Shown here: one piece after another, positions 24,216-44,524 of the stretch
Numbering within the stretch: position 1 is the stretch's first letter
Layout: each line of letters opens with the position of its first letter
Assembly: GCA_003599535.1 (NCBI GenBank)
Contig: QZKQ01000083.1
Span: forward strand, 14,584 to 78,583
Reading direction: 5' to 3'
Length of the DNA stretch: 64,000 nucleotides
Source of the DNA: Candidatus Zixiibacteriota bacterium
Lineage (GTDB): Bacteria > Electryoneota > B3-LCP
Program-made: the position numbers and the translations under genes
The notes under the pieces: model-generated
The model's input: the letters and a program-made list of their open reading frames with translations, nothing else
What the model was told of the DNA's origin: nothing
The model's database searches: none

Positions 24216-24532
24216 GGTGTCTCCTTGCGGTTCAATTCTGGCTTAACTTGGTTAATATAAACAAATTTCGGCGGTTTCACAAGCAAATTCGCGCCCGGAG
24301 TTCATACGGAGTGGGGTTCATGGTGATTCGTATGGTTGAACTCCGCCCGGTTCCGCTGTGACGCCGGTCCGGCGAAAAATCAAAGGGAATCGGTGCCCGG
24401 CTGTTGACTTTGAAGGAAAAATATATTACATTATTTATCTGTAACGTGGGCTTCGCGTTTCGACCAAGCGTAACTTTACCAGGACACCATCCGGATGACT
24501 TCCCCTTCCATCACCTTCTATAAGGAGGCAGC

Positions 24533-30472: not shown

Positions 30473-30558
30473 AGCACCCTTAACGAGAAATCCGACGGGC
30501 GGATCGTACGATCCGCCCGTTTTTTTCCATGTGCCTGTTAACTCGTCCTGTTAGAGTG

Positions 30559-30592
30559 ATGGAAAGATGGAAAGATTAAAAGATGGAAAGAT
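30559..30592. repeat. Tandem octamer repeat (GATGGAAA)n
   Basis: gatggaaagatggaaagattaaaagatggaaagatt. Confidence 0.6.
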
Positions 30593-30594
30593 TA

Positions 30595-30629
30595 GGGCGG
30601 CGTCACCGGTGACGCCGCCCTGTGTTTTT
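30595..30629 (+). terminator. Rho-independent terminator after lat
   Basis: Perfect 26-nt palindrome GGGCGGCGTCACCGGTGACGCCGCCC followed by TGTGTTTTT. Confidence 0.75.
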
Positions 30630-31074
30630 GCTGTCCGCTGCAAGCTGTCAGCTTGTTTCTGAGGCATGAGATTGCTTCGGCCCGCCGCTTCCCAGACCAC
30701 GCGGTCGTAACTGAACCTCCGAAGATCAAGGCACGGTTGAAGGTTCGTCTCCGGCGGGCCTCGCAATGACACTGGAGGGGGCCGGGGCAAAGCACTGACA
30801 CCGCCTTTGTTTTTCGCAGCTCACAGCTGTAAGCTGTCAGCTTTTTTCTTCCGCGGCGAGCAGGTGAGTACGATTGACGACGCCCGAGAGTCCGGCGATT
30901 TAAGCGTTTTCCCCGCCTCCGATGATTTTCTTTCGCCGATGCAATTATTAATTCGAAGAAAATTTACGTAAAAAATATCAAACCACCGCCTCCGGCATCC
31001 GGAGGCGTCATTCCCGCCCTTCCAGAGCCCTTTCCGGCCGAGGGGACGGCGTAACCTCAAGGGGGAGATGCGCT

Positions 31075-31359
31075 ATGGCTGGGGAATCGAAGACCACCAC
31101 CGATCACAAGACCATCCGCAAGTGGATCGAGGAGCGTGAAGGCCGGCCGGCCACGGTAAAGCGCACCGGCGACAAGGAAGATCCCGGCATCCTGCGGGTG
31201 GATTTCCCGGGGTATGGCGACAGCACCAGCCTGGAACCCATTTCCTGGGAAGAATTCTTCCAGAAATTCGATGAGAAGAAGCTGGCCTTCCTGTACCAGG
31301 AAACGACCAAGGAAGGGAAGACCAGCCGGTTCTTCAAATTCGTCAATCGCCAGACCTGA
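31075..31359 (+). CDS. Hypothetical small protein (94 aa)
   Basis: AT-richer ORF with an RBS-like GGGGGAG upstream. No family confidently recognised. Confidence 0.4.
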   Translation: MAGESKTTTDHKTIRKWIEEREGRPATVKRTGDKEDPGILRVDFPGYGDSTSLEPISWEEFFQKFDEKKLAFLYQETTKEGKTSRFFKFVNRQT

Positions 31360-31848
31360 CCATCTGGCGCCATGCTACGCCGATATTCGGCCCGGTAAAG
31401 CTTGAACCTCCGAGGCGTCCGGCAGGAATTCGCCCCTCACGGAGCAACGAATCTATTTCAGGATCACTTTTTCATATCCCTGCCACACCGCCGCCTGAAT
31501 CCTTCTTTTCCAGACACCCATCCTGGTGAGGCCTCGCCCGATCACCGGGCCGCGGACTGCATTCCCGGCCGGCCGCCGCGAGGCGCCGCATCGAACCTCC
31601 AAGCCATCCCGGCGCCGGCACAACCGTAGTCGGAGTCCAGCTTACCAAGCCGAAGTGCGCCTTGCCGGCCGGAGTCGCTCCGCCCGGCATACCGCCGCCG
31701 CAGGCCGCCGCTTTGCGCCGCGGGCGAGTCCTGCCGTTTGCGGATTTCGCGCCGCGATGGCTCTTGCTGCCGGGGCGCCTGAGGCCGCCGGACCACCGGG
31801 CCGGTTTTCGCACTCGAACCATCGTCTTCATCACCGGAGGGTACATTC

Positions 31849-32967
31849 ATGGCTGACCATATATTGATTACCGGAGGGGCCGGATTCATCGGGTCGCACC
31901 TGGCCGACGAACTGCTGTCGTCGGGATACCGGGTGCGGGTTTTGGATAACCTTACCGAGCAGGTCCACGGGCCCCAGCAGCAGCCGCCGGACTACCTGTC
32001 CAGCGACGTTGAGCTGATCATCGGCGATGTGCGCGACCCCGAGGCCGTGGAGCTGGCCCTGGAGGGCGTGGACGCGGTGTTTCATTTCGCCGCCATGGTG
32101 GGCGTGGGGCAGAGCATGTACCAGGCGCGGGATTACGTCTCGGTGAATGACCTGGGCACTGCCACGCTGCTGCAGGCCCTGATGCACCGTCCCCTGGAAC
32201 GCCTGGTCGTAGCCTCCTCCATGAGCCTTTACGGCGAAGGGATGTACGTGACCTCGGAAGGCCACCTGGTGGAAGGCCACCTCCGCAGCCTGGAACAGCT
32301 CCGCGATAATGACTGGAACCTGCGCGACGCCCGGGGGGAACTGATGATCCCCGTGCCCACCCCGGAAAGCAAGCCTCCGGCTCTGGCTTCGGTGTACGCG
32401 TTGACCAAGTACGCCCAGGAGCGCATGTGCCTGTTGATGGGCCAGGCCTACGGCATCCCCACGGTGGCGCTGCGCTTCTTCAACGCGTACGGCACCCGCC
32501 AGTCGCTCTCCAACCCCTACACTGGGGTGTTGGCCATTTTCGCTTCGCGGCTGCTGAACGAGCGCCGGCCGGTGGTGTTCGAGGACGGCCTGCAGAAACG
32601 GGATTTCGTCCACGTGCGGGATGTGGCCCGCGCCTGTCGCCTGGCCCTGGAGAGTGAGGAGGCGCCGGGCCTGGCCTTAAACGTCGGCAGCGGCCGCATC
32701 TACACCATCCTGGAGATCGCCCGGAAGCTGATCTCCATCCTGGGCCGGGAACCCCTGGAGCCGGAGATCAGCGGGAAATTCCGCACCGGCGACATCCGCA
32801 ACTGCTTCGCCGACATCTCCCTGGCTCGCGGCGTGCTGGGCTATGCGCCCCAGGTGCCCCTGGAGGAGGGCCTGGCGGAATTGGCCGAATGGCTGAACCA
32901 CCAGATGGCGGAAGATTACTTCGACGAAGCTCGCCGCGAACTTGACGCCCGGGGGTTGACGGCATGA
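31849..32967 (+). CDS. NAD-dependent epimerase/dehydratase (extended SDR, UDP-sugar 4-epimerase-like)
   Basis: N-terminal Rossmann motif ITGGAGFIGSHL. YxxxK catalytic region. ATGA overlap with the downstream gene. Confidence 0.8.
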   Translation: MADHILITGGAGFIGSHLADELLSSGYRVRVLDNLTEQVHGPQQQPPDYLSSDVELIIGDVRDPEAVELALEGVDAVFHFAAMVGVGQSMYQARDYVSVNDLGTATLLQALMHRPLERLVVASSMSLYGEGMYVTSEGHLVEGHLRSLEQLRDNDWNLRDARGELMIPVPTPESKPPALASVYALTKYAQERMCLLMGQAYGIPTVALRFFNAYGTRQSLSNPYTGVLAIFASRLLNERRPVVFEDGLQKRDFVHVRDVARACRLALESEEAPGLALNVGSGRIYTILEIARKLISILGREPLEPEISGKFRTGDIRNCFADISLARGVLGYAPQVPLEEGLAELAEWLNHQMAEDYFDEARRELDARGLTA

Positions 32968-35024
32968 CCGACGGTACCGTCACCCAAACCCGGCAGCGGT
33001 ATCCCCGCCGGAACGAACCCCGCCCCGCCCCCCGGATGGGGGTGGTGGAATGGTTCCGGCCGGGCGAATTTGAGCGGGTGGAGCAAGCCCTGGAACAGAT
33101 CAAGGCCCTCGGCCTGCGGGAATTGCGCACCGGAGTTTCCTGGTCGGATTACCACCGCCTGGAAGGCCCCTGCTGGTACGATTGGCTCCTGCCGCGGTTG
33201 TCCCGCGAAGTGAACGTCGTCCCCTGCTTCGTCTACACCCCGCCTTCCATTGGCTTGGCGCCGAAAATCTCGGCGCCGCCCAAGGATCCCAAGGCCTTCG
33301 CCGATTTCCTGGACATGATGATCACCCGCCACGACCGGGATTTCGAGTGGATCGAGCTGTGGAACGAACCCAACGACCTGAACAACTGGGACTGGCGGCT
33401 GGACCCGGACTGGATGCAGTTCTCCACGATGGTCGGCGGGGCGGCCTACTGGATCAAGCAGCGGGGCAAGAAGACAGTGCTGGCCGGCCTCTGCCCCACC
33501 GATCCCAACTGGCTGGCCCTGATGTGTCACCGCGGGGTTATGCAGTATATTGACGCGGTGGGCATCCACGTCTACCCGGGAACCCGGGAATTCCAGTGGT
33601 CCGGATGGAACGACCTGCTGGACAAGGTGCGCTTGGTGCTGCGGGTTCACGGCCATAACCCGGAGATCTGGATCACCGAAGCGGGGTACTCCACCTGGCG
33701 CCATGACGAGATCAACCAGGTGGAAGTATTCCTGGGGGGCTTGGAAGCGCCGGTGGACAGGTTCTACTGGTGCAGCCTGCAGGATCTGGATCCGGCGCTG
33801 CCCAGCATGGAAGGGTTCCATGTGGACGAGCGGCATTACCACTTCGGCATGGTCAAGGCCGACGGCACCCCCAAGCTGCTCTACCGCCTGCTGGCCAAGG
33901 GAGGCCTGGAGGCGGTACAGACCATCCATCAGACCGCCAAGGTGCCGCTGCTAATCCGTAGCGCGGAGAAGCCGGTGGTTATCACCGGCGGGGCGGGCTT
34001 CATCGGCAGCAACCTGGCCGACCGGCTGGCGCGGATGGGAAGGCGGGTCGTCATCTACGACAACCTGAGCCGCCCGGGAGTGGAGGACAATCTGCTGTGG
34101 CTCCGGGAAAACCACGGCGACAGCATCGCGGTGGAAATCGCCGATGTGCTGGACCCCTACACCCTGCGCTACGTCGTGCGCCAGGCCGACCAGATCTTCC
34201 ACTTCGCCGCCCAGGTGGCCGTGACCACCAGCCTGTCCGACCCGGCGGATGACTTCGACGCCAACGCCCGGGGAACCCTGAACCTGCTGGAGGCCATCCG
34301 GGCGATGCGCCGTCCGCCCCCCCTGGTGTTTACCTCCACCAATAAGGTGTACGGCAAGCTGGGAGGGCTGGAACTGGTGGAGAACGGCCGCCGCTATCTG
34401 CCCGCCGACGAACGCATCCGCCTGCGCGGGATTGACGAGAGCCAGGCCCTGGACTTCTACAGTCCCTACGGCTGTTCCAAGGGGGCGGCCGACCAGTACG
34501 TGGTGGATTACGCCCGGATCTACAATCTCCCGGCGGTGGTGTTCCGCATGAGCTGTATTTACGGCCCGCGGCAGTTGGGAACGGAAGACCAGGGGTGGGT
34601 GGCCCATTTCCTGATCAATGCCCTGGCCGGGGAGCCCATCACCTTGTTTGGCGACGGCAAGCAGGTGCGCGACGTGCTGTTCGTGGAAGACCTGCTGGAG
34701 GCGTTGCTGCTGGCCCAGGCCAGGATGCCCGCGGTCCACGGCCAGGCGTTCAACATCGGCGGGGGGCCGGGCAATACCGTCAGCCTGCTGGAAATCCTGG
34801 ACCTGATCGGCACATTGAATCGCCAACCGGTGGAATATTTTTTCGGTCCCTGGCGCCCCGGCGACCAGGCATATTACGTATCAAATATTGAACGCTTTCG
34901 CCGGGCCACCGGCTGGCGGCCCAAAATGGGTGTACTGGAAGGAGTATCGCGACTGCATCGCTGGCTGCGGGAATACCGTTTCCCCGCCACGGTCGAATCA
35001 CCATTGGAACTGGCAGCCGTTTGA
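32964..35024 (+). CDS. Two-domain fusion: N-terminal clan GH-A TIM-barrel glycoside-hydrolase-like domain plus C-terminal NAD-dependent epimerase/dehydratase
   Basis: N-terminal half carries the GH-A acid/base motif ELWNEPN and the nucleophile motif IWITEAGYS. There is no signal peptide. C-terminal half from about residue 345 starts VVITGGAGFIGSNLADRL and has the full extended-SDR layout. Confidence 0.65.
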   Translation: MTDGTVTQTRQRYPRRNEPRPAPRMGVVEWFRPGEFERVEQALEQIKALGLRELRTGVSWSDYHRLEGPCWYDWLLPRLSREVNVVPCFVYTPPSIGLAPKISAPPKDPKAFADFLDMMITRHDRDFEWIELWNEPNDLNNWDWRLDPDWMQFSTMVGGAAYWIKQRGKKTVLAGLCPTDPNWLALMCHRGVMQYIDAVGIHVYPGTREFQWSGWNDLLDKVRLVLRVHGHNPEIWITEAGYSTWRHDEINQVEVFLGGLEAPVDRFYWCSLQDLDPALPSMEGFHVDERHYHFGMVKADGTPKLLYRLLAKGGLEAVQTIHQTAKVPLLIRSAEKPVVITGGAGFIGSNLADRLARMGRRVVIYDNLSRPGVEDNLLWLRENHGDSIAVEIADVLDPYTLRYVVRQADQIFHFAAQVAVTTSLSDPADDFDANARGTLNLLEAIRAMRRPPPLVFTSTNKVYGKLGGLELVENGRRYLPADERIRLRGIDESQALDFYSPYGCSKGAADQYVVDYARIYNLPAVVFRMSCIYGPRQLGTEDQGWVAHFLINALAGEPITLFGDGKQVRDVLFVEDLLEALLLAQARMPAVHGQAFNIGGGPGNTVSLLEILDLIGTLNRQPVEYFFGPWRPGDQAYYVSNIERFRRATGWRPKMGVLEGVSRLHRWLREYRFPATVESPLELAAV

Positions 35025-35088
35025 GGGGGCATGCGGGCCCCGTGGCGCGCTGCCTGGCACAACGATTACCCGATGACCAGGAGGAGCC

Positions 35089-36252
35089 ATGTCGGACCAG
35101 AATAATCAGTTCAACCGCGAGGCCATTGCCGGAAACCCGGCCGCCATGCGGGTGCTCATGACCGTGGATACTTACGGCGGAGTCTGGGATTACGCCATGG
35201 AGTTGACCGCCCGCCTGGCGGAGCACGGCGTCCGGACCATCCTGGCCACCATGGGCCAGCCGCTGACTTCCGCCCAGGCCGAAGCGGTGGGAGCGGTGCC
35301 GGGCCTGATCCTGGAGCAGAGCCGCTTCAAGCTGGAATGGATGCCCGACGTGGGCGACGACGTGGAACGCTCCGGGCAATGGCTGCTGGCCCTGGAACAA
35401 CGCTTCCAGCCCGACCTGGTGCACCTGAACGGGTATTCCCACGCCCTGCTCCCCTGGAAATCCCCCTGCATGGTGGTGGCGCACTCCTGCATTCTGACCT
35501 GGTGGCAGGCGGTCAAGGGCACCCAGGCGCCGCCCGCCATGAATGCCTACAGCCGGATGGTGGCCCGGGCGTTGCGCAACGCCGACCGGGTGGTGACGCC
35601 CACCCGGGAGCTGCGCTGGGCCATGGAACGCTTCTATGGTCCGCTGCCCCATGTGCGCACCATCTGGAACGGCCGCCGCCCCGCCGACTTTGGTCCCCAG
35701 GAGAAGCAACCGATCATCTTTACCGCCGGACGGCTGTGGGATGAGGCCAAGAACGCCGCCGCCCTGGACGCCGTGGCTCCGCAGCTCGAGTGGCCGGTCT
35801 TCGCCGCGGGCAGTTGGCGCCGCCCGGACGGAAGCGGCTCTCCCCCCCGCCACCTGACCCACCTGGGAATCCTGCCCCGCCGGGAGATGAACGACTGGTT
35901 CGCCCGGGCGGCCATCTTCGCCGAGCCGGCTTACTACGAACCCTTCGGATTGTCCGTGCTGGAAGCGGCTCTCTCCGGCTGCGCCCTGGTGCTGGGAAAC
36001 ATTCCCACCCTGCGGGAGCTGTGGGAGGGGGCGGCCGTGTTCGTGCCACCAGGCGATGCGGCCGCGCTGCGGGAACGCCTGCTCGATTTAATCCGGGATC
36101 CCGAGGTCCGCGCTCACCTGGGGCGGCTGGCGCGGGAACGCGCGCAACGGTACAGCTCCGAACACATGGCCCAGGCCTATGCAGAGGTCTATTCCGACAT
36201 GGTGGCCCGCCACGCCGCCCGGGATGAAACCTCCATCCCGGCGTTGGCCTGA
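35089..36252 (+). CDS. Glycosyltransferase family 4
   Basis: GT-B fold with the C-terminal EPFGLSVLEAALSGCALV motif. Confidence 0.7.
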   Translation: MSDQNNQFNREAIAGNPAAMRVLMTVDTYGGVWDYAMELTARLAEHGVRTILATMGQPLTSAQAEAVGAVPGLILEQSRFKLEWMPDVGDDVERSGQWLLALEQRFQPDLVHLNGYSHALLPWKSPCMVVAHSCILTWWQAVKGTQAPPAMNAYSRMVARALRNADRVVTPTRELRWAMERFYGPLPHVRTIWNGRRPADFGPQEKQPIIFTAGRLWDEAKNAAALDAVAPQLEWPVFAAGSWRRPDGSGSPPRHLTHLGILPRREMNDWFARAAIFAEPAYYEPFGLSVLEAALSGCALVLGNIPTLRELWEGAAVFVPPGDAAALRERLLDLIRDPEVRAHLGRLARERAQRYSSEHMAQAYAEVYSDMVARHAARDETSIPALA

Positions 36253-36384
36253 AAAATTTTATTCGTGAACGGCCTTCCGACCCTCCTCCCGGCGCCCCTC
36301 CGCCGTATCAACAAATAACAGCCGTCCTGCTTTACTCCCTACCTCCCCCGGCTTGCTCCGTCATCCTACACAGAGGTATATATC

Positions 36385-37488
36385 ATGGAAATCGCCTTCT
36401 TTGGTTCCAGCCTGGTGTCGGCGTACTGGAATGGAGCCGCTACCTACTACCGCGGCATTATCCGGGCGCTGGCCGCCCTGGGGCACCGCGTCACCTTCTA
36501 CGAACCGGACGCCTACCAGCGGCAGGAATTCCGCGATATGGAAGACCCCGAATGGGCTCGCGTGGAGGTGTACCCCGCCACCGAGGACGGGGTGTACCGA
36601 TCCCTGGAAAAAGCCCGGAGCGCGGACGTCATCATCAAGGCCAGCGGCGTGGGCGTCTTCGACGACCTGCTGGAACGGTCGGTGCTGGAGTTGCAGGGTC
36701 CCGGTACTGCGGTGATTTTCTGGGACGTGGACGCTCCCGCCACCCTGGACCGGTTGCACCACAACTGGGACGATCCCTTCCGGACGCTGATCCCCAAGTA
36801 CGACCTGATCCTGACCTACGGCGGCGGCCCTCCGGTAGTGGTGGCCTACCGCTCCCTGGGAGCCCGGGATTGCCTCCCCGTCTACAACGCCCTCGACCCG
36901 CAGACGCATCACCCCGTCCCCCTGGAAGAACGCTTCGCCAGCGACCTGCTGTTCATCGGCAACCGTCTGCCCGACCGCGAAGAACGGGTGGAGCACTTCT
37001 TCCTGGAATCGGCGGCGCACCTGCCGCACCGGCGCTTCCTGCTGGGAGGCAGCGGCTGGCACGACAAGCCCATGCCCGCCAATGTCCGCTACCTGGGCCA
37101 CGTCTACACCACCGACCACAACGCCCTGAACAGTTCCGCCCTGGCGGTGCTGAACATCAGCCGCTCGAGCATGGCGCGGTACGGGTATTCCCCCCCCACG
37201 CGGATCTTCGAGGCGGCCGGGGCCGGCGCCTGCCTCATCACCGATAATTGGCAGGGCATTGACGAGTTCCTGGAGCCGAACAAGGAGATCCTGGTGGCCC
37301 GCGACGCGCACGAGGTGGTCGAGCATTTGCGGCGCCTGGGCCGGATGGAAGCCCGGGTCCTCGGCAAGGCGGCGCTCCAGCGGGTACTGGCGGAACACAC
37401 CTACGCCCACCGCGCCGCCCAGGTGGACGAACTGTTGCGGGGCGCTTCCAAGCAGCGCGCTCCCGCGCCCGTGGCGGAGTTCGCATGA
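36385..37488 (+). CDS. CgeB-family / DUF3880-type glycosyltransferase (paralog 1)
   Basis: Layout resembles spore-maturation CgeB-like GT-B enzymes: LLFIGNRLPDREE...IFEAAGAGACLITD. Clear paralogy with the next gene. Confidence 0.55.
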   Translation: MEIAFFGSSLVSAYWNGAATYYRGIIRALAALGHRVTFYEPDAYQRQEFRDMEDPEWARVEVYPATEDGVYRSLEKARSADVIIKASGVGVFDDLLERSVLELQGPGTAVIFWDVDAPATLDRLHHNWDDPFRTLIPKYDLILTYGGGPPVVVAYRSLGARDCLPVYNALDPQTHHPVPLEERFASDLLFIGNRLPDREERVEHFFLESAAHLPHRRFLLGGSGWHDKPMPANVRYLGHVYTTDHNALNSSALAVLNISRSSMARYGYSPPTRIFEAAGAGACLITDNWQGIDEFLEPNKEILVARDAHEVVEHLRRLGRMEARVLGKAALQRVLAEHTYAHRAAQVDELLRGASKQRAPAPVAEFA

Positions 37489-38606
37489 GCAGGCTGCGCG
37501 TGGTCATCCTGGGGCTGTCCATCACCTCCTCCTGGGGCAACGGCCATGCCGTGACCTACCGCGCCCTGGTCCGGGCGCTGACCCGCCGGGGGCATCAGGT
37601 CCTGTTCCTGGAGCGCGACAAGCCGTGGTACGCCCATAACCGGGATCTCCCCCACCCCCCCTTCGGCCGCACCGAGCTGTACGGCGGCCTGGAAGAGCTG
37701 CGCGACCGCTTTGCCGGGGAGGTGCGCGAGGCGGACCTGGTGATGGTGGGATCCTTCGTGCCGGAGGGGATCGCGGCGGGGGGCTGGGTCCTGGATCAGG
37801 CGCGCGGCCTGACCGCCTTTTACGACATTGACACCCCCGTGACCCTGGGAAAGCTGGAGCGAGGGGAGTGCTCCTACCTGGCGGTGCGGCAAATCGCCCG
37901 CTATGACCTCTACCTCTCCTTCACCGGCGGCCCGACGCTGGAGCGCCTGGGGCGGGAATTCGGATCCCCCATGGCCCGCCCGCTGTACTGCTCGGTGGAC
38001 CCGGAGCAGTACTTCCCCGAAGAAACCGAACTGCGCTGGGACCTGGGCTACCTGGGCACCTACAGCCTTGACCGCCAACCGGCGGTGGACCGCCTGCTGA
38101 CTCATCCCGCCCGCGATTGGCTGGAAGGCCGCTTCACCGTGGCCGGGCCACAGTACCCGGCGGACCTGGATTGGCCGGCCAACGTGGCCCGGATCGAGCA
38201 CCTTCCGCCGCCGGAACACCGCCGGTTCTACAACGCCCAGCGCTTCACCCTGAACGTCACCCGCGCGGACATGATTCGGGCGGGATGGTCGCCCAGCGTG
38301 CGGCTGTTCGAAGCGGCGGCGTGCGGCACGCCGATCATCAGCGACTGGTGGGAGGGGCTGGACCAGTTCTTCACCCCGGGGCGGGAAATCTTCCTGCCGG
38401 CCTCCCCCGCCGAAGTCCTGACTATCCTGCGGAAAATGCCCGAGGAGGTGCGCCGGACTGCCGGCCAGGCCATCCGGCGGCGGGTCTTTCAGACCCACAC
38501 CGCCGAGCACCGGGCGCGGGAACTCGAAGCCTTCGTTCTCGAACGGCAGACCCAAGTTGCCGGGCAGAGACAGGCGGCGGGATGGAGCACGGCGGTTTCC
38601 CCCTGA
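37485..38606 (+). CDS. CgeB-family / DUF3880-type glycosyltransferase (paralog 2)
   Basis: Paralog of the previous ORF: LGYLGTYSLDRQ...LFEAAACGTPIISD. 4-nt overlap with the previous gene. Confidence 0.55.
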   Translation: MSRLRVVILGLSITSSWGNGHAVTYRALVRALTRRGHQVLFLERDKPWYAHNRDLPHPPFGRTELYGGLEELRDRFAGEVREADLVMVGSFVPEGIAAGGWVLDQARGLTAFYDIDTPVTLGKLERGECSYLAVRQIARYDLYLSFTGGPTLERLGREFGSPMARPLYCSVDPEQYFPEETELRWDLGYLGTYSLDRQPAVDRLLTHPARDWLEGRFTVAGPQYPADLDWPANVARIEHLPPPEHRRFYNAQRFTLNVTRADMIRAGWSPSVRLFEAAACGTPIISDWWEGLDQFFTPGREIFLPASPAEVLTILRKMPEEVRRTAGQAIRRRVFQTHTAEHRARELEAFVLERQTQVAGQRQAAGWSTAVSP

Positions 38607-39340
38607 TCCCGGTCAGCGGGGCTCTGGCCCTGGCGCTGGCGCTCGTCCACCTGTTTGCCGGAAAGCTCCGTTTCCTCGACGTCATCCCCCGCAGCCGGTG
38701 GTTGTCCGCCGCCGGCGGTATTTCCGTCGGCTATGTCTTCGGCCATCTCCTGCCGGATATGGCCTCCCGGCAGCGACACCTGGAGAGAGTCGAGGCGCTG
38801 GACTGGATCCACGCGCTGGAATTCCACATTTTTCTGATAGCCCTGGCCGGCCTGGTGATCTTCTATGGGCTGGAGACGGCTGCCCGCAAGAGCAGGGCCC
38901 GGTCCAGCGGAGAATCGTCCCAGAAAAATGCCGCCGGCCCCAAGGTCTTCTGGCTGCACATGGCCTCCTTCGGCCTGTACAACGGGCTGATCGGTTACCT
39001 GCTGCTGAACCGGGAACAGCCGGGCTGGAGCAGCATGATCTTCTACACCCTGGCCATGTCCGCCCATTTCCTGGTCAACGATTACGGTCTGCGGCAGTAC
39101 CACAAGGCTCTGTATCACAAGCTGGGACAGTGGCTCTTGTCCGGTGCGGTGGTGCTGGGATGGATGGCAGGAACGCAGTGGCAGGTGAGCCGTGCCGTCG
39201 TGGCCATCTTCTACGCCTTCCTGAGCGGCGGCATCATCCTGAACGTCATCAAGGAAGAACTGCCGAAGGAGCGGGAAAGCCGCTTCTGGGCCTTCGCCCT
39301 GGGCGCGGCCGGGTACACCGCGCTGCTCCTGGCGACCTGA
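38582..39340 (+). CDS. Integral membrane protein, about 8 predicted TM helices, unknown function
   Basis: Start set at MEHGGFPLIPVS, in frame with ORF 38117..39340, whose upstream part was rejected. Conserved His and Asp in TM segments (GHLLPDM, HFLVNDYG) give a faint ZIP-like pattern, which is speculative. Confidence 0.5.
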   Translation: MEHGGFPLIPVSGALALALALVHLFAGKLRFLDVIPRSRWLSAAGGISVGYVFGHLLPDMASRQRHLERVEALDWIHALEFHIFLIALAGLVIFYGLETAARKSRARSSGESSQKNAAGPKVFWLHMASFGLYNGLIGYLLLNREQPGWSSMIFYTLAMSAHFLVNDYGLRQYHKALYHKLGQWLLSGAVVLGWMAGTQWQVSRAVVAIFYAFLSGGIILNVIKEELPKERESRFWAFALGAAGYTALLLAT

Positions 39341-39506
39341 AGAGGCCACGAACCAACTATTACAAGAGCTTGATTATTATGCATTTCACAGTGGGACCGG
39401 ATTACAATCCGATCCTTTTTTTTTCGTATCACTTGGGAATCGGAAGAGCGGCGGCGCACTTTCCCGGTTGGAGCCGCCGTTATTTATATTATTATGAGGG
39501 GATTCC

Positions 39507-40370
39507 ATGCCGGAGCAGAAAGAACAGAAACAACCGCCGCAGCACCAGCCCAAGCAGCCGGGGGAGATGGATCTGATGACCCCGGAGCCGGACTACGAGA
39601 TGAAGGAATACCGCGCGGCCGGCAAGCTGGAAGGGAAGTCGGCCATTGTGACCGGAGGGGACAGCGGCATCGGGGCGGCGGTGGCGGTGGCCTTCGCCAA
39701 GGAAGGGGCCGATGTGGCCATCGTCTACCTGGAGGAGCACGAAGATGCCCAGAAAGTCCGGCGGGAAGTCGAAAAGGCCGGCCGGCGCTGCCTGACCTTC
39801 GCCGGGGACGTGGGCCGGGAGGATTTCTGCCGCGAAGCGGTGGAACGCACGGTGAAGGAGCTGGGCCGCCTGGACGTCCTGGTCAACAATGCCGCCGAAC
39901 AGCACATGGCCACCGAACCGGAGGAGATCAGCGAAGAGCAGTTGGTCAAGACGTTCCGCACCAACATCTTCGCCTATTTCTTCATGGTCAATGCCGCCCT
40001 GAAGCATCTGCAGGAGGGCGCCGCCATCATCAACACTACCTCGGTGACAGCCTACAAGGGCAATCCCGTGCTGCTGGACTATTCGTCCACCAAGGGAGCC
40101 ATCGTGGCGTTCACCCGGTCGCTGGCGCTGATGCTGGCAGAGCGCGGCATCCGGGTCAACGGGGTGGCTCCCGGCCCCATCTGGACGCCGCTGATCCCGG
40201 CTACCTTCCCTCCGGACAAGGTGGCTTCGTTCGGGTCGAACGTACCCCTGGGCCGCGCGGGACAGCCCTCGGAGGTGGCCCCCTGCTTCGTCTTTCTGGC
40301 CAGCCGGGACAGTTCCTACATGACCGGGCAGGTGCTGCATCCCAACGGAGGCGAAATCGTCAACGGCTGA
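39507..40370 (+). CDS. SDR-family oxidoreductase (YhdF / general-stress-protein-39-like)
   Basis: Rossmann motif TGGDSGIGAA. N-terminal low-complexity extension, NNAA motif, YxxxK. Confidence 0.75.
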   Translation: MPEQKEQKQPPQHQPKQPGEMDLMTPEPDYEMKEYRAAGKLEGKSAIVTGGDSGIGAAVAVAFAKEGADVAIVYLEEHEDAQKVRREVEKAGRRCLTFAGDVGREDFCREAVERTVKELGRLDVLVNNAAEQHMATEPEEISEEQLVKTFRTNIFAYFFMVNAALKHLQEGAAIINTTSVTAYKGNPVLLDYSSTKGAIVAFTRSLALMLAERGIRVNGVAPGPIWTPLIPATFPPDKVASFGSNVPLGRAGQPSEVAPCFVFLASRDSSYMTGQVLHPNGGEIVNG

Positions 40371-40376
40371 GGCGGG

Positions 40377-41351
40377 ATGAAGCTGAAAACCATCTGGTCC
40401 ATCATCGAGACCGTGGTGAACGAGTGGAGCGCGGATAAAGCCTCCACCTGGGCGGCGGCGCTGGCCTACTACACCATTTTCTCCCTGGCTCCGCTCCTGA
40501 TTATCGCCATCGCGGTGGCTGGGCTGTTCTTCGGGGAGGAGGCGGCCAGCGGGGAAATCCTGCACCAGATGGATCAGTTGATCGGACCGCAGGGGGCCCG
40601 GGCCATCCAGGATCTGATTCAGAACGCGCGCCAGCCGGGGGCCGGGATCATTGCCGCGGTCATCGGTTTCGCGGTGCTGTTCTGGGTCGCTTCCAACCTG
40701 TTCAGCTCGATGCGCACGGCCCTGAATTACATCTGGGAAATCGCGCCCCGGCCGGGCAGCGGCATCTGGTGGTTCATCCGCGACCGGTTGATCTCCTTCG
40801 GTATGGTGCTGTCCATCGGTTTCGTGCTGATGGTGTCCATGCTCTTAAGCGCCACCATCGCCGCCATGGGCAATTACCTGGGCCGGCTGCTGAATATTCC
40901 GCCGGCGGCGCTCACGGTGATCAACTTTGTGGTCTCCTTCCTGGTCGTCACGTTGCTGGTCGCCATGATCTTCCGCTATCTGCCGGCGGCCCGGGTGCGT
41001 TGGAGTGATCTTTGGCTCGGCGCCGGGTTGACCGCCATCCTGTTCACCATCGGCAAGACCCTGATCGGTTTCTACCTGGGGCAGAGCGCGACGGCCTCCA
41101 CTTACGGGGCGGCCGGGTCGCTGGTGGTGCTGCTGATCTGGGTCTACTACAGCACCCAGATCCTATTCTTCGGGGCGGAATTCACCCAGGTGTACGCCCA
41201 GCGGTATGGGGCGGGCATCCCCACCACGGAAGGTGCAGTGCACATCGAACGGGGCGCCGAGAAGCACCTGGGCACCGGGCGAAAAGACGAGGAGAAGGCC
41301 GGGAGCGAGGCGGAGCGCAGACCGCGAGTGACGGAGGAGACGGAGGCCTGA
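40377..41351 (+). CDS. YihY/BrkB (virulence factor BrkB / RNase BN-like) family membrane protein
   Basis: AALAYYTIFSLAPLL... signature. 6 TM. Confidence 0.75.
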   Translation: MKLKTIWSIIETVVNEWSADKASTWAAALAYYTIFSLAPLLIIAIAVAGLFFGEEAASGEILHQMDQLIGPQGARAIQDLIQNARQPGAGIIAAVIGFAVLFWVASNLFSSMRTALNYIWEIAPRPGSGIWWFIRDRLISFGMVLSIGFVLMVSMLLSATIAAMGNYLGRLLNIPPAALTVINFVVSFLVVTLLVAMIFRYLPAARVRWSDLWLGAGLTAILFTIGKTLIGFYLGQSATASTYGAAGSLVVLLIWVYYSTQILFFGAEFTQVYAQRYGAGIPTTEGAVHIERGAEKHLGTGRKDEEKAGSEAERRPRVTEETEA

Positions 41352-41386
41352 TCGGCCGCCGGGGTAAAGGATAAGGAAAGCATGCG

Positions 41387-42349
41387 ATGAAAAAGATTTG
41401 GGCACTGCTGAAAGCCGTCATTGACGAATTCGGCAAGGACAAGGCCACCGTGTGGGCGGCGGCCCTGGCCTATTACACTATTTTCTCCCTGGCGCCGCTG
41501 CTGCTGATCGCCATTTCCGTGGCCGGCTTGATTTTCGGCCCGCAGGCGGCCCGGGGCCAGGTCATGGATCAGGTCAGCCAGGTGATCGGCCCGCAGGCCG
41601 CCCAGGGGGTGCAGTCGCTGCTGGCCGGCGTCAGCCGCCCCGGGACGGGCCTGCTGGCGGCGGGCATCGGTTTCGTGGTGCTGCTGTGGGGCGCCTCGTC
41701 GCTCTCCCTGTCGCTGAAGAAGAGCCTGCATTTCATGTGGGACATCACCCCGCCCGGCGGCGGCATTCTGGGGATGCTGAAGAGCCGCTTCACCTCGGTC
41801 TGGCTGGTGCTGGGCATCGGCTTCGTGCTGCTGATCTCCATGGCCGTCAGCGCTACTGTAGCCGGTACGGGCCGGGATATCGGGCAGGCCATCGGCGTCC
41901 CCCCGATCCTGCTGAACGTGGTGGACTGGGTATTGTCCCTGGTCATCTTCACCCTGGCCTTCGGGCTGATTTTCCGTTACCTGCCCGATACCCGGGTGCA
42001 GTGGCGCGACGTGTTGATCGGGGCCGGCATCACCGCGGTGTTGTTCACCATCGGCAAGGTGGCCCTGGGGTACTACCTGGGGCGCAGCGCGGTGGCTTCC
42101 GGTTACGGCGCCGCCGGGTCGCTGGTGGTGCTGCTGCTGTGGATCTACTACAGCGCCCAGATCCTGTTCCTGGGGGCGGAATTCACCCAGGTGTACTCCC
42201 AGCGTTTCGGATCGGGCATTCGCCCGGAAAAGGGAGCCCGGCGCCTGGAGGAAGGGGAGAAGCGCCCCCGCGACGAGGAAGACCGCGAGCGGCAGGACGG
42301 CGCCCGACCCCGCCGGCGGCCGCACCTGGCGGAGGAGGAAAAAGAGTAA
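41387..42349 (+). CDS. YihY/BrkB family membrane protein (tandem paralog)
   Basis: Same signature (AALAYYTIFSLAPLLLIAISVAGL). Tandem duplicate. Confidence 0.75.
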   Translation: MKKIWALLKAVIDEFGKDKATVWAAALAYYTIFSLAPLLLIAISVAGLIFGPQAARGQVMDQVSQVIGPQAAQGVQSLLAGVSRPGTGLLAAGIGFVVLLWGASSLSLSLKKSLHFMWDITPPGGGILGMLKSRFTSVWLVLGIGFVLLISMAVSATVAGTGRDIGQAIGVPPILLNVVDWVLSLVIFTLAFGLIFRYLPDTRVQWRDVLIGAGITAVLFTIGKVALGYYLGRSAVASGYGAAGSLVVLLLWIYYSAQILFLGAEFTQVYSQRFGSGIRPEKGARRLEEGEKRPRDEEDRERQDGARPRRRPHLAEEEKE

Positions 42350-42413
42350 TTCGACCATCGGGAGGACGCGCATCCAGTCCTGGAGCATCCGGCCGACACC
42401 CTGACCTGATCGG

Positions 42414-43514
42414 ATGGAGGGCAGCGTGGATCATCCCGCATCTCAGGCGGACCTTTACCGGAAAGTCATTATCGGCCTGCTGGCGGTCATCGCCCTGATC
42501 CTGGCCGCCGCCGCATTGAAGGCGACCTACGTCATCAGCATGCCGTTGGCGGCAGCCTTCTTCCTGGCGGCGCTGCTGCGGCCTCTGCAGGTTTGGTTGA
42601 ACCGGCGCCTGCCGGACCGCCTGCACTTCCTGAGCCTGGCCCTGACCATGCTGGCGGTGGTCGTCGTCTTCGCCCTGTTCATCGGACTGCTCGTGTGGGG
42701 CGGACAGGCGGTGGCGGATAAGGCTCCGCAGTATGTTCGCCAATTGGAGAGCCTGTGGAACCAGGCCCTGAATTGGGCCGACGAGCAGGGTTTCCCGTTG
42801 CGGGAACGCTTGGAGGCCTCCCAGGGGTTGTCCGACCGGGTGGTGAGCCTGGCCATGAACGTATTCGGCGCGGCCTGGGCCTTCCTGGGCCTGCTGGTGC
42901 TGGTCTTCTTTCTCCTGTTGCTGATGCTGCTGGAAACCGCCGACTGGCGGGAAAAGACCCGGGCGGCTTTCCCGCGAAAGCGTAGCGACGCAGTGCTGGA
43001 GGCGGTTCATCACGTGGCCGGGGGGGTGCGAACGTACCTGCTGGTGCACGCGGCGGTGAGCGCCATTTCCGGGCTGGCTGCGGGGCTGTTCCTGTGGATC
43101 ATGGGGGTGGATTTCGCCCTGCTGTGGGGCGTGACAACCTTCGGCTTGAACTTCCTGCCCTACATCGGCTCCATTCTGGCCGTGATCCCGCCGACCCTGA
43201 CGGCGCTGGTGCAGATGGGGCCGGTCTGGACTCTGGCCGTCCTGGCAGGGCTGACGGTCATTGACCAGGTGATGGGCAACTACGTGGATCCCCGGTTGAC
43301 GGGGCACGTGCTGAAGATTTCCCCGGTAGCGCTGCTGACGTCACTGGTCTTCTGGGGTTGGATGTGGGGCGCGGTGGGAGCGCTGCTGGCCGTACCCCTG
43401 GCCATCACCCTGATCGTCGCCTGCGCCCACGTTCCGGGACTGAAACCGGTGGCCCGGCTGCTGTCCCGCAGCGCCGAAGCGGTGATGGACGAAGCGGCCA
43501 AAGAGAAAGACTGA
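42414..43514 (+). CDS. AI-2E family transporter (UPF0118 / PerM-like)
   Basis: 8 TM helices. About 366 aa. Family-typical layout. Confidence 0.65.
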   Translation: MEGSVDHPASQADLYRKVIIGLLAVIALILAAAALKATYVISMPLAAAFFLAALLRPLQVWLNRRLPDRLHFLSLALTMLAVVVVFALFIGLLVWGGQAVADKAPQYVRQLESLWNQALNWADEQGFPLRERLEASQGLSDRVVSLAMNVFGAAWAFLGLLVLVFFLLLLMLLETADWREKTRAAFPRKRSDAVLEAVHHVAGGVRTYLLVHAAVSAISGLAAGLFLWIMGVDFALLWGVTTFGLNFLPYIGSILAVIPPTLTALVQMGPVWTLAVLAGLTVIDQVMGNYVDPRLTGHVLKISPVALLTSLVFWGWMWGAVGALLAVPLAITLIVACAHVPGLKPVARLLSRSAEAVMDEAAKEKD

Positions 43515-44512: not shown

Positions 44513-44524
44513 AGGAGCCGCAGT

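What the first reader, a model, noticed from the sequence alone, without database searches (positions are those of the whole stretch)
31849..39340. Six-gene cytoplasmic glycan-modification module with a hydrolase-epimerase fusion and tandem CgeB/DUF3880 glycosyltransferases
A tightly spaced co-directional gene set, with 4-nt overlaps at two junctions, looks like a single operon. It sits behind a 480-nt untranslated leader.

Its genes are:
- an SDR sugar epimerase
- a 686-aa protein fusing a clan GH-A TIM-barrel hydrolase-like domain to a second SDR epimerase (ELWNEPN acid/base and ITEAGYS nucleophile motifs, no signal peptide)
- a GT4
- two paralogous CgeB-like GT-B enzymes
- an 8-TM membrane protein

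The set has no Wzx/Wzy, no ABC exporter and no polyprenyl-phosphate priming transferase. That does not fit a standard O-antigen or EPS pathway. A better fit is a soluble or membrane-associated glycoconjugate, or an oligosaccharide remodelling system, of unknown product. A retaining or inverting hydrolase fused to a nucleotide-sugar epimerase is an unusual architecture. It suggests a coupled trimming and epimerisation step.
Basis: partly seen in the sequence, partly recalled or inferred. Interest (0 to 1): 0.8.

Follow-up and report, generated by a model that had tools for sequence, protein, structure and literature searches.

The report
Widespread exporter-less sugar-epimerase/glycosyltransferase cassette
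The genes are real and form the smallest version seen here of an uncharacterised sugar-building gene set found in at least a dozen bacterial phyla; it has no conserved export machinery, so it probably makes an intracellular, possibly stress-protective, sugar chain.

Summary
Window 31849-39340 carries six co-directional genes: a GalE/PelX-like SDR, a 686-aa fusion of a PslG-like (clan GH-A) barrel to a CDP-tyvelose 2-epimerase homologue, a GT4, two PF13524 (CgeB-type) glycosyltransferases and a ZIP-like permease.

The interpretation needs correcting on three points:
- **The fusion is not rare.** More than 4,600 homologues at about 60% identity were found. All 80 retrieved loci, from at least 12 phyla, keep the same gene order.
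- **The conserved unit is five genes, not six.** The permease is a passenger. The window has the smallest version seen. Other loci add ADH+GFO oxidoreductases or a B12-radical-SAM enzyme (TIGR04295), a third PF13524 enzyme and a TIGR04290 methyltransferase.
- **Hydrolysis is not tightly coupled to epimerisation.** About 20% of homologues have lost a catalytic Glu, and 15 of 82 loci show no such barrel at all. Nine loci with a dead domain carry an intact, circularly permuted copy fused to the methyltransferase.

No exporter, flippase or priming transferase is conserved near any locus. This supports a lipid-carrier-independent cytoplasmic glycan.

The product is unknown, and I found no literature on the cassette.

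The parts
31075..31359 (+). 94-aa conserved small protein of unknown function.
   Evidence: GC3 is 0.78. There are no Pfam or NCBIfam hits. The family has 1,346 clusters at 65-79% identity in several phyla. Homologues lie within 10 kb of the cassette in 16 other loci, 13 of them within 1.2 kb of a core gene and 3 of those inside the cassette. In Thermobaculum and Herpetosiphonaceae it sits among HSP20, TreT, YflT and MscS genes.
31360..31848 (+). 489-nt non-coding spacer or leader before g1.
   Evidence: GC is flat across the three codon positions of its ORFs. There is no Rfam match at E<=1. The fold z-score for 31500-31848 is -1.05. A GGAGG ribosome-binding site precedes the g1 ATG.
31849..32967 (+). 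g1: extended SDR, GalE/PelX/MoeE5-like nucleotide-sugar epimerase. It has a long insertion between the catalytic Ser and the Y183xxxK187 motif.
   Evidence: Pfam Epimerase 3e-52, in two stretches. PDB hits: 6wjb/6wj9 (UDP-GlcNAc C4-epimerase from P. protegens), 6kv9 (MoeE5) and 4zrm, at 1e-40 to 4e-44. It is 33% identical to the C-domain of g2, with Y183/K187 aligned on Y502/K506.
32964..33971 (+). g2 N-domain (aa 1-336): cytoplasmic clan GH-A (beta/alpha)8 barrel, closest to GH39 PslG. Putative acid/base is E135 (WNEPN) and putative nucleophile is E239 (ITEAGYS).
33972..35024 (+). g2 C-domain (aa 337-686): CDP-tyvelose 2-epimerase homologue, a probable NDP-hexose C2-epimerase.
   Evidence: PDB 9rl0 (TaTyvE) 6.5e-84 and 1orr 3e-80. 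Foldseek against 1orr gives TM 0.93 and 42% identity. The residues named for TaTyvE in PMC13098431 (triad T124/Y164/K168, Gln205, Pro297-Asp302 loop with Arg299) lie in aligned, conserved motifs. By my count they correspond to T459, Y502, K506, Q543 and R631.
35089..36252 (+). g3: GT4 retaining GT-B glycosyltransferase.
   Evidence: Pfam Glyco_transf_4 3e-15 and Glycos_transf_1 2e-13. The nearest solved relatives match only over the C-terminal donor domain. From my recollection of the entries, 6kih and 2r60 are sucrose-phosphate synthases and 3c4q is MshA. The depositors' names give PimA, alpha-maltose-1-phosphate synthase and glycogen synthase for the rest.
36385..37488 (+). g4: PF13524 (YkvP/CgeB-type) GT-B-like glycosyltransferase.
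   Evidence: Glyco_trans_1_2 2e-41. No PDB relative by sequence. Homologues at 54-69% identity keep the same position in nearly all loci.
37485..38606 (+). g5: second PF13524 glycosyltransferase, a paralogue of g4 at 31% identity.
   Evidence: Glyco_trans_1_2 1e-38. BLASTP of g4 against g5 gives 1e-53. It is conserved next to g4 in most loci.
38582..39340 (+). g6: ZIP-family-like permease. It is probably co-transcribed but is not a conserved member of the cassette.
   Evidence: Homologues carry PF02535 and some are named 'zinc transporter ZupT'. The window protein gives only a weak Zip hit at 6e-4. Among the related loci a homologue was found only in L061, 5.7 kb from the cassette.
39398..39421 (+). 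Terminator-like hairpin plus T-run, the likely end of the transcription unit.
   Evidence: Consensus scan: CGGATTACAATCCG followed by ATCCTTTTTT.

Best explanation
The window carries the smallest version seen here of a widespread, horizontally spread, uncharacterised cassette. I think it tailors nucleotide-hexoses and joins them, in the cytoplasm and without a polyprenyl carrier or dedicated exporter, into a short glycan or glycoside.

**Shown here**
- Enzyme family assignments for all genes.
- Conservation of gene order across phyla.
- Absence of conserved export or priming genes.
- Domain fusions that tie the proteins together.

**Inferred steps**
1. The C-domain of g2 (TyvE-like; T459/Y502/K506, tightly bound NAD) inverts C2 of an NDP-hexose by transient oxidation and re-reduction. 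This would be a CDP-glucose to CDP-mannose type of reaction.
2. g1 (GalE/PelX-like) performs a second epimerisation, probably at C4. It acts either on the same nucleotide sugar or to supply a second donor. In some lineages g1, the barrel and the C2-epimerase form one polypeptide, so they probably work as one complex.
3. The GT4 enzyme g3 starts a chain on a soluble acceptor, and the two PF13524 enzymes g4 and g5 extend it.
4. The PslG-like barrel (E135/E239, retaining mechanism) cuts or edits the product, for length control, primer release or recycling. This parallels the glycosidases built into other glycan synthesis systems.

Larger versions of the cassette add oxidoreductases or a B12-radical-SAM enzyme, and an O-methyltransferase, which further decorate the product. 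The link to stress-type genes suggests a protective intracellular glycan. This would resemble mycobacterial polymethylated polysaccharides or compatible-solute oligosaccharides.
For: **Family assignments**

**Conservation**
- More than 4,600 g2 homologues.
- 577 of 600 pattern matches in one-genome-per-species contigs encode a relative. The 80 loci kept come from at least 12 phyla.
- The order g1, g2, [ADH+GFO or rSAM], GT4, third PF13524, g4, g5, [MT] is seen in nearly all loci.

**No conserved exporter**
- No flanking family occurs in more than 10 of 82 loci. ORFs with at least 8 TM segments occur in 15 of 81 loci and ABC ATPases in 2 of 81.
- g1-g5 have no signal peptide or TM segment.

**Fusions indicating one functional unit**
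- g1+g2 fusions of 1,050-1,100 aa.
- g2 fused to a zinc ADH, P0117.
- rSAM fused to GT4, 808 aa.
- Methyltransferase fused to a permuted barrel, 587 aa.

**Catalytic barrel activity matters to the system**
- Nine longer loci (about 20 kb or more) whose fused barrel lacks a Glu all carry a second copy with both Glu intact.
- Only 2 of about 45 loci with an intact fused barrel carry a second copy.

**Precedent for carrier-free glycosylation**
- CgeB, a PF13524-type enzyme, is proposed to glycosylate CgeA directly (PMC13577073).

**Stress link**
- The 94-aa gene lies beside the cassette in the window and in 16 other loci. Elsewhere it sits among HSP20, TreT and YflT genes.
- A histidine-phosphatase gene recurs in extended loci.
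Against: - No product, substrate or phenotype is known, and every biochemical step is inferred from family membership.
- GT-B enzymes that act on undecaprenyl-linked intermediates are also soluble. Lack of TM segments therefore does not prove a cytoplasmic product, and exporters could be encoded elsewhere in the genome.
- The barrel is dispensable in many lineages. No copy was found in 15 of 82 loci, and one or both Glu are lost in 37 of 184 homologues. Its role may be structural rather than catalytic.
- The window lacks the third PF13524 enzyme, the methyltransferase and the oxidoreductases found almost everywhere else. Its product may differ, or the pathway may be degenerate.
- The dead-barrel/second-copy association rests on few independent lineages, mostly Bryobacterales and Terriglobia.
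- The stress link is by gene neighbourhood only.
Confidence: 0.55

Rival explanations
1. The cassette is the sugar-tailoring and glycosyltransferase part of an ordinary cell-surface polysaccharide pathway (O-antigen, capsule or EPS). Its priming transferase, flippase or ABC exporter and polymerase would be encoded elsewhere.
For: - TyvE, GalE-like epimerases and GT4 enzymes are typical of O-antigen and EPS loci.
- PslG belongs to an exopolysaccharide system.
- In rhizobia the cassette sits on megaplasmids; from memory, pSymB carries many polysaccharide loci.
- Soluble GT-B enzymes commonly act on lipid-linked intermediates (general knowledge).
Against: - None of 81 loci from at least 12 phyla shows a conserved membrane or export gene within 10 kb on either side.
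- The barrel has no signal peptide or anchor, so it cannot reach a periplasmic polymer.
- The cassette moves between phyla as a self-contained unit.
- The nearest solved relatives of g3 have soluble or lipid acceptors rather than undecaprenyl carriers.
Confidence: 0.2
2. It is a cytoplasmic protein O-glycosylation system. As CgeB does with CgeA, the PF13524 enzymes would put a tailored glycan on a protein, possibly the recurrent 94-aa protein encoded just upstream.
For: - g4 and g5 belong to the CgeB-type family.
- CgeB is proposed to glycosylate Thr112 of CgeA directly from a UDP-sugar (PMC13577073).
- A small conserved protein with a Thr-rich N-terminus (TTTDH) is next to the cassette in the window and in 16 other loci.
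Against: - The small gene lies within 10 kb of only about one fifth of loci. Elsewhere it occurs without the cassette, among stress genes.
- No Ser or Thr is invariant in its alignment.
- The CgeB evidence itself is weak: a slight gel shift and modelling.
- DUF3880 was not detected in g4 or g5.
Confidence: 0.12
3. It is a catabolic or salvage module. The barrel would release sugars from an imported oligosaccharide, and the epimerases would convert them into central-metabolism hexoses.
For: A glycoside hydrolase fold next to epimerases resembles Leloir-type utilisation loci.
Against: - Each locus has three to five glycosyltransferases, often with methyltransferases or radical-SAM enzymes.
- No conserved sugar transporter, kinase or regulator is present.
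- TyvE-type enzymes act on nucleotide sugars, not free sugars (PMC13098431 and PMC7851689).
- The barrel is catalytically dead or absent in many loci.
Confidence: 0.03

Closest known systems
CDP-tyvelose 2-epimerase (TyvE/RfbE; S. enterica 1ORR, T. atlanticus 9RL0)
   Same: The C-domain of g2 aligns end to end (E = 6.5e-84; 42% identity to 1orr; TM 0.93). It keeps the Thr/Tyr/Lys triad, Gln205 and the Arg299 loop that bind CDP.
   Different: - It is fused behind a 335-aa glycosidase-like barrel, or in other lineages to g1.
- It is not in a 3,6-dideoxyhexose (rfb) context. No cytidylyltransferase-type gene was found in the 64 kb.
- Substrate is untested.
PslG (GH39) of the Pseudomonas aeruginosa Psl system
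   Same: - It has the same (beta/alpha)8 fold with Glu after beta4 (NEP motif) and at the end of beta7.
- Like PslG, it is a glycosidase embedded in a glycan synthesis operon.
   Different: - Only 22% identity, and no Pfam GH39 hit.
- No membrane anchor or signal, so it is cytoplasmic.
- The SDR domain follows directly at residue 337, so the roughly 90-residue C-terminal region of PslG beyond the aligned barrel has no counterpart.
- 20% of family members lack a catalytic Glu, and natural circular permutants exist.
CgeB / PF13524 spore-crust glycosyltransferase of Bacillus subtilis
   Same: g4 and g5 carry the same C-terminal Glyco_trans_1_2 domain. CgeB is thought to work without lipid carrier or exporter.
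   Different: - No DUF3880 was detected and no CgeA homologue was looked for.
- The enzymes occur as two or three tandem paralogues in non-sporulating phyla.
- There is no direct functional evidence.
Mycobacterial polymethylated polysaccharide pathways (MGLP, MMP) and glucosylglycerate-type solute pathways
   Same: From my own knowledge of these pathways (not tested here):
- They are cytoplasmic.
- They have no exporter.
- They combine GT4-type transferases, SAM methyltransferases and a dedicated hydrolase.
- They use a histidine-phosphatase-family phosphatase for the primer.

Extended versions of this cassette contain the same kinds of parts.
   Different: - No sequence orthology was established.
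- The window version lacks the methyltransferase and the phosphatase.
- The epimerases and PF13524 enzymes have no counterpart in MGLP or MMP loci.
TIGR04295 (B12-binding radical SAM) / TIGR04290 (meth_Rta_06860) hypothetical-equivalog cassette
   Same: The accessory genes of homologous loci hit these two models far above cutoff: 730 bits against a cutoff of 400, and 328-378 bits against 300. Curators therefore already recognised these families. My recollection is that they were defined from a conserved multi-gene cassette in rhizobia and Ramlibacter.
   Different: Neither gene is present in the window. The models are 'hypothetical equivalogs' with no assigned function, and I found no paper on them.

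Membership tests
Clan GH-A glycoside hydrolase (4/7 superfamily) | (beta/alpha)8 barrel | tested here: met
   [not shown]
Clan GH-A glycoside hydrolase (4/7 superfamily) | Acid/base Glu in an Asn-Glu-Pro motif after strand 4 and nucleophile Glu at the end of strand 7 | tested here: met
   E135 (WNEPN) follows beta4 (residues 129-132) and E239 (ITEAG) ends beta7 (234-240). Both motifs align with the corresponding PslG motifs. Across the family, 37 of 184 sequences lack one or both.
Clan GH-A glycoside hydrolase (4/7 superfamily) | Glycosidase activity | not testable with these tools
   Needs an enzyme assay.
GH39 (PslG / beta-xylosidase family) | Family-level sequence similarity (Pfam or CAZy model) | tested here: inconclusive
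   There is no Pfam hit on residues 1-335. PslG is the only PDB sequence hit, at 1e-8 and 22% identity. This is best treated as a distinct PslG-related GH-A group, with 136 representatives at E<=1e-30.
GH39 (PslG / beta-xylosidase family) | Extracytoplasmic location and an accessory C-terminal beta-sandwich domain | tested here: not met
   There is no signal peptide or TM segment. The barrel is followed directly by the SDR domain.
CDP-tyvelose 2-epimerase (extended SDR) | GxxGxxG NAD site, Thr/Tyr/Lys triad, and CDP-binding Gln205 and Arg299 loop | tested here: met
   GGAGFIG, STNK, YGCSK, EDQGW and WRPGDQ all align on TaTyvE and StTyvE. The residue roles come from PMC13098431.
CDP-tyvelose 2-epimerase (extended SDR) | Context of a CDP-3,6-dideoxyhexose pathway (cytidylyltransferase, dehydratase, reductase) | tested here: not met
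   No nucleotidyltransferase homologue was found in the 64-kb window, and the neighbours are unrelated. This argues for a glucose/mannose-type substrate rather than paratose/tyvelose.
CDP-tyvelose 2-epimerase (extended SDR) | C2-epimerase activity on an NDP-hexose | not testable with these tools
   Needs an enzyme assay.
GalE-type NDP-sugar 4-epimerase (g1) | NAD site and Ser/Tyr/Lys triad | tested here: met
   GGAGFIG, SSMS and Y183xxxK187 are present. They align with the g2 C-domain and with the UDP-GlcNAc C4-epimerase 6wjb (PelX, from memory) and GalE. Specificity is unknown, and a roughly 35-aa extra insertion lies before the Tyr.
GT4 (g3) | Glyco_transf_4 N-domain plus Glycos_transf_1 C-domain above Pfam thresholds | tested here: met
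   56.9 and 50.9 bits against cutoffs of 28.5 and 26.4.
CgeB-type glycosyltransferase (g4, g5) | PF13524 Glyco_trans_1_2 domain | tested here: met
   141.6 and 129.7 bits against a cutoff of 25.
CgeB-type glycosyltransferase (g4, g5) | N-terminal DUF3880 | tested here: not met
   No DUF3880 match at E<0.01.
Wzx/Wzy- or ABC-dependent polysaccharide locus | Priming polyprenyl-phosphate transferase, flippase or ABC exporter, and polymerase in or next to the locus | tested here: not met
   None is present in the window between 24.5 and 47.8 kb. None is conserved in 81 related loci. The detection was heuristic: clustering, TM counting and Walker/LSGGQ motifs.
TIGR04295/TIGR04290 cassette | Presence of the B12-radical-SAM enzyme and/or the Rta_06860-type methyltransferase | tested here: not met
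   Both are absent from the whole window. They are present in most homologous loci. The window is a reduced relative of that cassette.
ZIP metal permease (g6) | PF02535 domain above threshold | tested here: inconclusive
   The window protein scores 19.5 bits against a cutoff of 35.1. Many homologues at 52-60% identity carry a precomputed PF02535 hit.

The most novel reading that the evidence does not exclude
The cassette makes a so-far unrecognised class of intracellular, stress-linked oligosaccharide or glycoside, built from C2/C4-epimerised nucleotide hexoses. It has spread by horizontal transfer through at least a dozen phyla, including rhizobial megaplasmids. Its PslG-like barrel would found a new cytoplasmic GH-A family. 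That family has three natural states: active; catalytically dead but retained as a scaffold; and circularly permuted and fused to a methyltransferase.
Probability: 0.3. Interest if true: 0.8.

Novelty: new variant of a known kind. Interest (0 to 1): 0.6.

Why it matters
If the reading is right, hundreds of soil, desert, rhizosphere and sediment bacteria share a self-contained pathway for an unknown intracellular glycan. Nobody appears to have studied it, even though it is present in model rhizobia (S. meliloti 1021 pSymB, R. etli CIAT 652 pC).

- It offers genetically tractable hosts for finding the product and testing a role in desiccation or osmotic survival.
- It offers a candidate new glycoside hydrolase family, with natural circular permutants and pseudo-enzymes.
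- It offers a natural fusion series (C4-epimerase, barrel, C2-epimerase) that could be useful for sugar-nucleotide biocatalysis, where TyvE-type enzymes are already being engineered.

For annotation, it warns against calling such loci O-antigen or EPS clusters, or 'CDP-paratose 2-epimerase' genes.

Tried and rejected
- **Literature searches.** Nine of ten searches found nothing on this cassette. Terms tried were CgeB/DUF3880/PF13524, TIGR04295/TIGR04290/rhizo-twelve/Rta_06860, R. etli locus tags, SMb202x tags, and tyvelose with pSymB or general stress response. One query was badly designed and uninformative. The TyvE papers do not mention the fusion.
- **Riboswitch or structured leader.** Rejected: no Rfam match and z = -1.05.
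- **Hidden genes in the 489-nt gap.** Rejected on codon-position GC.
- **g6 as exporter of the product.** Rejected: it is ZIP-like and not conserved with the cassette.
- **PLSDB annotation of S. meliloti pSymB.** It was empty, so no locus tags could be obtained.
- **EcfG-type promoter scan in alphaproteobacterial loci.** GGAAC-N15-18-CGTT lies 53 nt upstream of g1 in L009 and L061, and about 74 nt upstream of the small gene in L035. It is absent in the rhizobial loci, and the background is about 1 hit per locus. This is a lead only.

Full report
**1. What is in the window**

The region 31849-39340 holds six co-directional ORFs with the third-position GC bias of real genes (0.84-0.85). ATGA overlaps join g1/g2 and g4/g5. 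g3 follows g2 after 64 nt with an AGGAGG site, and g4 follows g3 after 132 nt. g6 starts at the ATG at 38582, inside the end of g5, not at 38117. A terminator-like hairpin follows g6 at 39398.

Upstream, the aminotransferase gene ends at 30472 and is followed by two strong terminators. A 94-aa gene follows at 31075-31359, then 489 nt with no coding signal, no Rfam match and ordinary folding energy. The exact match of g6 and of the 94-aa protein to NCBI entries places the window in a Candidatus Zixiibacteriota MAG. This fits the T9SS sorting-domain protein at 24524.

**2. The proteins**

- **g1** is an extended SDR. It is closest to a UDP-GlcNAc C4-epimerase from P. protegens (6wjb/6wj9; PelX, from memory), MoeE5 and thermophilic GalE enzymes. 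It has a long insertion before its Y183xxxK187 motif, and it is 33% identical to the C-domain of g2.
- **g2 residues 337-686** are an end-to-end homologue of CDP-tyvelose 2-epimerase: 9rl0 at 6.5e-84, and 1orr at 42% identity with TM 0.93. The Thr/Tyr/Lys triad, Gln205 and the Arg299 loop described for the T. atlanticus enzyme are conserved (PMC13098431). That enzyme converts CDP-glucose to CDP-mannose (PMC7851689, PMC13098431).
- **g3** is a GT4. Its nearest solved relatives match only over the donor domain. From memory of the entries they include sucrose-phosphate synthases and MshA. By the depositors' names they include PimA, alpha-maltose-1-phosphate synthase and glycogen synthase.
- **g4 and g5** are PF13524 proteins, 31% identical to each other. 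They have no solved relative by sequence and no detectable DUF3880.
- **g6** is a ZIP-like permease.
- **g1-g5** have no signal peptide or TM segment by a crude hydropathy scan.

**3. The fusion and the gene set are widespread**

The g2 architecture has more than 4,600 database homologues at about 55-63% identity. Sources include Planctomycetota, Armatimonadota, Bacteroidota, Chloroflexota, Bacillota and Proteobacteria.

The 80 loci kept span at least 12 phyla. Mapping the window proteins and accessory proteins onto these loci gives one recurring order:

1. g1
2. g2
3. either a zinc ADH plus a GFO/IolG-like oxidoreductase, or a B12-binding radical-SAM enzyme
4. GT4
5. a third, distant PF13524 protein
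6. g4
7. g5
8. a class-I methyltransferase

The radical-SAM and methyltransferase proteins hit TIGR04295 and TIGR04290 far above cutoff. Both are 'hypothetical equivalog' models. So curators had noticed these families, but no function is attached and I found no paper.

The cassette is on rhizobial megaplasmids, including R. etli CIAT 652 pC (RHECIAT_PC0000289-298) and S. meliloti 1021 pSymB.

The window has none of the accessory genes anywhere in its 64 kb. It is the smallest version I saw, and even its closest relatives carry the radical-SAM set. g6 has a homologue near only one other locus, so the conserved unit is five genes.

**4. No export machinery**

I clustered all flanking ORFs of at least 120 aa from 81 loci. 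No family outside the core is present in more than 10 loci. The most frequent are a histidine phosphatase, the third PF13524 protein (which the earlier mapping had missed in some loci), a possibly GT9-like protein (Pfam E = 0.0087, below threshold), and a nucleotidyltransferase. ORFs with at least 8 hydrophobic segments occur in 15 of 81 loci and ABC ATPase motifs in 2 of 81, without conservation. The methods are heuristic, and exporters elsewhere in the genomes cannot be excluded.

**5. What the barrel is doing**

Natural fusions tie the tailoring enzymes together:
- g1+barrel+TyvE polypeptides of about 1,030-1,100 aa.
- g1+TyvE without a barrel.
- g2 fused to a zinc ADH.
- Radical SAM fused to GT4.
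- Methyltransferase fused to a barrel.

In 184 aligned barrels, W133, W60, R55 and D288 are almost invariant, but 37 sequences lack E135 and/or E239.

A locus-by-locus table shows the following:
- About 45 loci have an intact fused barrel. Only 2 of them have a second copy.
- Nine longer loci (about 20 kb or more) with a dead fused barrel all carry a second copy with both Glu intact.
- Four loci with no fused barrel also carry such a second copy.
- 15 loci show no barrel within 10 kb.

The second copy is circularly permuted: residues about 128-308 come first, then about 22-123, in one reading frame. It is fused to the C-terminus of the TIGR04290 methyltransferase.

My reading is that glycosidase activity is a frequent but not universal part of the system and can be supplied from either protein. 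The dead fused domains are kept for a structural role between the two epimerases. This weakens the idea of an obligatory coupled trimming-and-epimerisation step. The association rests on few independent lineages.

**6. A missed accessory gene and a stress link**

The 94-aa protein upstream has no family assignment. It belongs to a well-conserved family of 1,346 clusters at 65-79% identity across phyla. Homologues lie within 10 kb of the cassette in 16 other loci. Thirteen are within 1.2 kb of a core gene and three of those are inside the cassette.

In Thermobaculum-type and Herpetosiphonaceae contigs, without the cassette, it sits among HSP20, trehalose synthase TreT, YflT, an SDR and MscS genes.

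The window's downstream neighbour is a PRK06701-type SDR. Relatives of it also recur near the cassette.

EcfG-like promoter motifs precede g1 in two Rhodospirillales loci and precede the small gene in one locus. The background rate is high, so this is only a lead.

Together with the soil and desert bias of the named hosts (my impression from the genus names), this suggests a stress-protective product.

**7. Most likely mechanism and rivals**

The best-supported picture (confidence 0.55) has four steps:
1. NDP-hexose is epimerised at C2 by the TyvE-like domain.
2. A second epimerisation, probably at C4, is done by g1.
3. A short glycan is assembled on a soluble acceptor by GT4 plus the PF13524 enzymes.
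4. The product is edited or recycled by the cytoplasmic PslG-like barrel.

Fuller versions of the cassette add redox and methyl decorations. From my own knowledge, the closest functional analogues are the mycobacterial polymethylated polysaccharide and glucosylglycerate pathways; this is not a tested relationship.

The rivals are:
- The tailoring/GT half of an ordinary surface polysaccharide pathway (0.2).
- CgeB-like protein glycosylation, perhaps of the 94-aa protein (0.12; precedent in PMC13577073).
- Catabolism or salvage (0.03).

**8. Novelty and score**

All parts belong to known enzyme families, and the cassette's accessory genes already have placeholder models. But I found no study of the architecture (PslG-like barrel fused to a C2-epimerase), the exporter-less organisation or the product. 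I rate it a new variant of a known kind, with interest 0.6.

The window itself adds a reduced member of the cassette rather than a unique invention. The family-level features are the surprising parts: phylum-spanning conservation, dead and circularly permuted barrels, and the stress-gene link.

Noticed in passing
L016 21122-22885 (also L012, L015, L017-L019, L022, L026, L033, L057, L065, L075, L076, L080; S. meliloti pSymB L084 about 571-1452): A second PslG-like barrel in related loci is circularly permuted. The part matching g2 residues about 128-308 precedes the part matching about 22-123, in one ORF. It is usually fused to the C-terminus of the TIGR04290 methyltransferase. It keeps both catalytic Glu in most loci, one exception being L076. 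It occurs mainly where the epimerase-fused barrel is dead or missing.
   Followed up: partly
window 31075-31359: This is a conserved 94-aa protein with no family assignment; some UniRef entries name it '1,4-alpha-glucan branching enzyme', which looks like a mis-annotation. It recurs beside the cassette in 16 other loci. Elsewhere it lies among HSP20, TreT, YflT and MscS stress genes.
   Followed up: partly
window 44513-47753: A separate pair of genes sits here: a GT4 glycosyltransferase followed by a protein with GDE_N_bis and MGH1-like (mannosylglycerate-hydrolase-type) domains. It looks like a compatible-solute or glycoside turnover pair, 5 kb downstream of the cassette.
   Followed up: no
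window 39507-43514: Downstream of the cassette lie a PRK06701-type SDR (7e-132), two tandem BrkB/YihY-family membrane proteins and an AI-2E family transporter. Relatives of the SDR also sit near the cassette in L040, L052 and L082.
   Followed up: partly
window 30494-30849: The region after the aminotransferase gene contains three features. There are two perfect 13-14-bp palindromic terminators. There are four overlapping copies of an 8-nt-period GATGGAAA repeat (30550-30589). There are two 31-nt copies (84% identical, 189 nt apart) of a GCTGTCAGCTT-containing element, each ending in a T-run.
   Followed up: partly
L009 9936, L061 9942, L035 17049: GGAAC-N15-18-CGTT motifs, the alphaproteobacterial general-stress (EcfG) promoter type, lie 53 nt upstream of g1 in two Rhodospirillales loci. 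One lies about 74 nt upstream of the small-protein gene in a third locus. The motif is absent at this position in the rhizobial loci. The background is about one match per locus.
   Followed up: partly
L086 5483-7909; P0117; P0004/P0008/P0055: Further natural fusions occur within the cassette. They are B12-radical-SAM fused to GT4 (808 aa), g2 fused to a zinc alcohol dehydrogenase (1,041 aa), and g1 fused to g2 (1,051-1,097 aa).
   Followed up: partly
window 24524-25639: This protein has a C-terminal Por_Secre_tail (type IX secretion sorting) domain. That is consistent with the FCB-group (Zixibacteria) origin of the contig.
   Followed up: no
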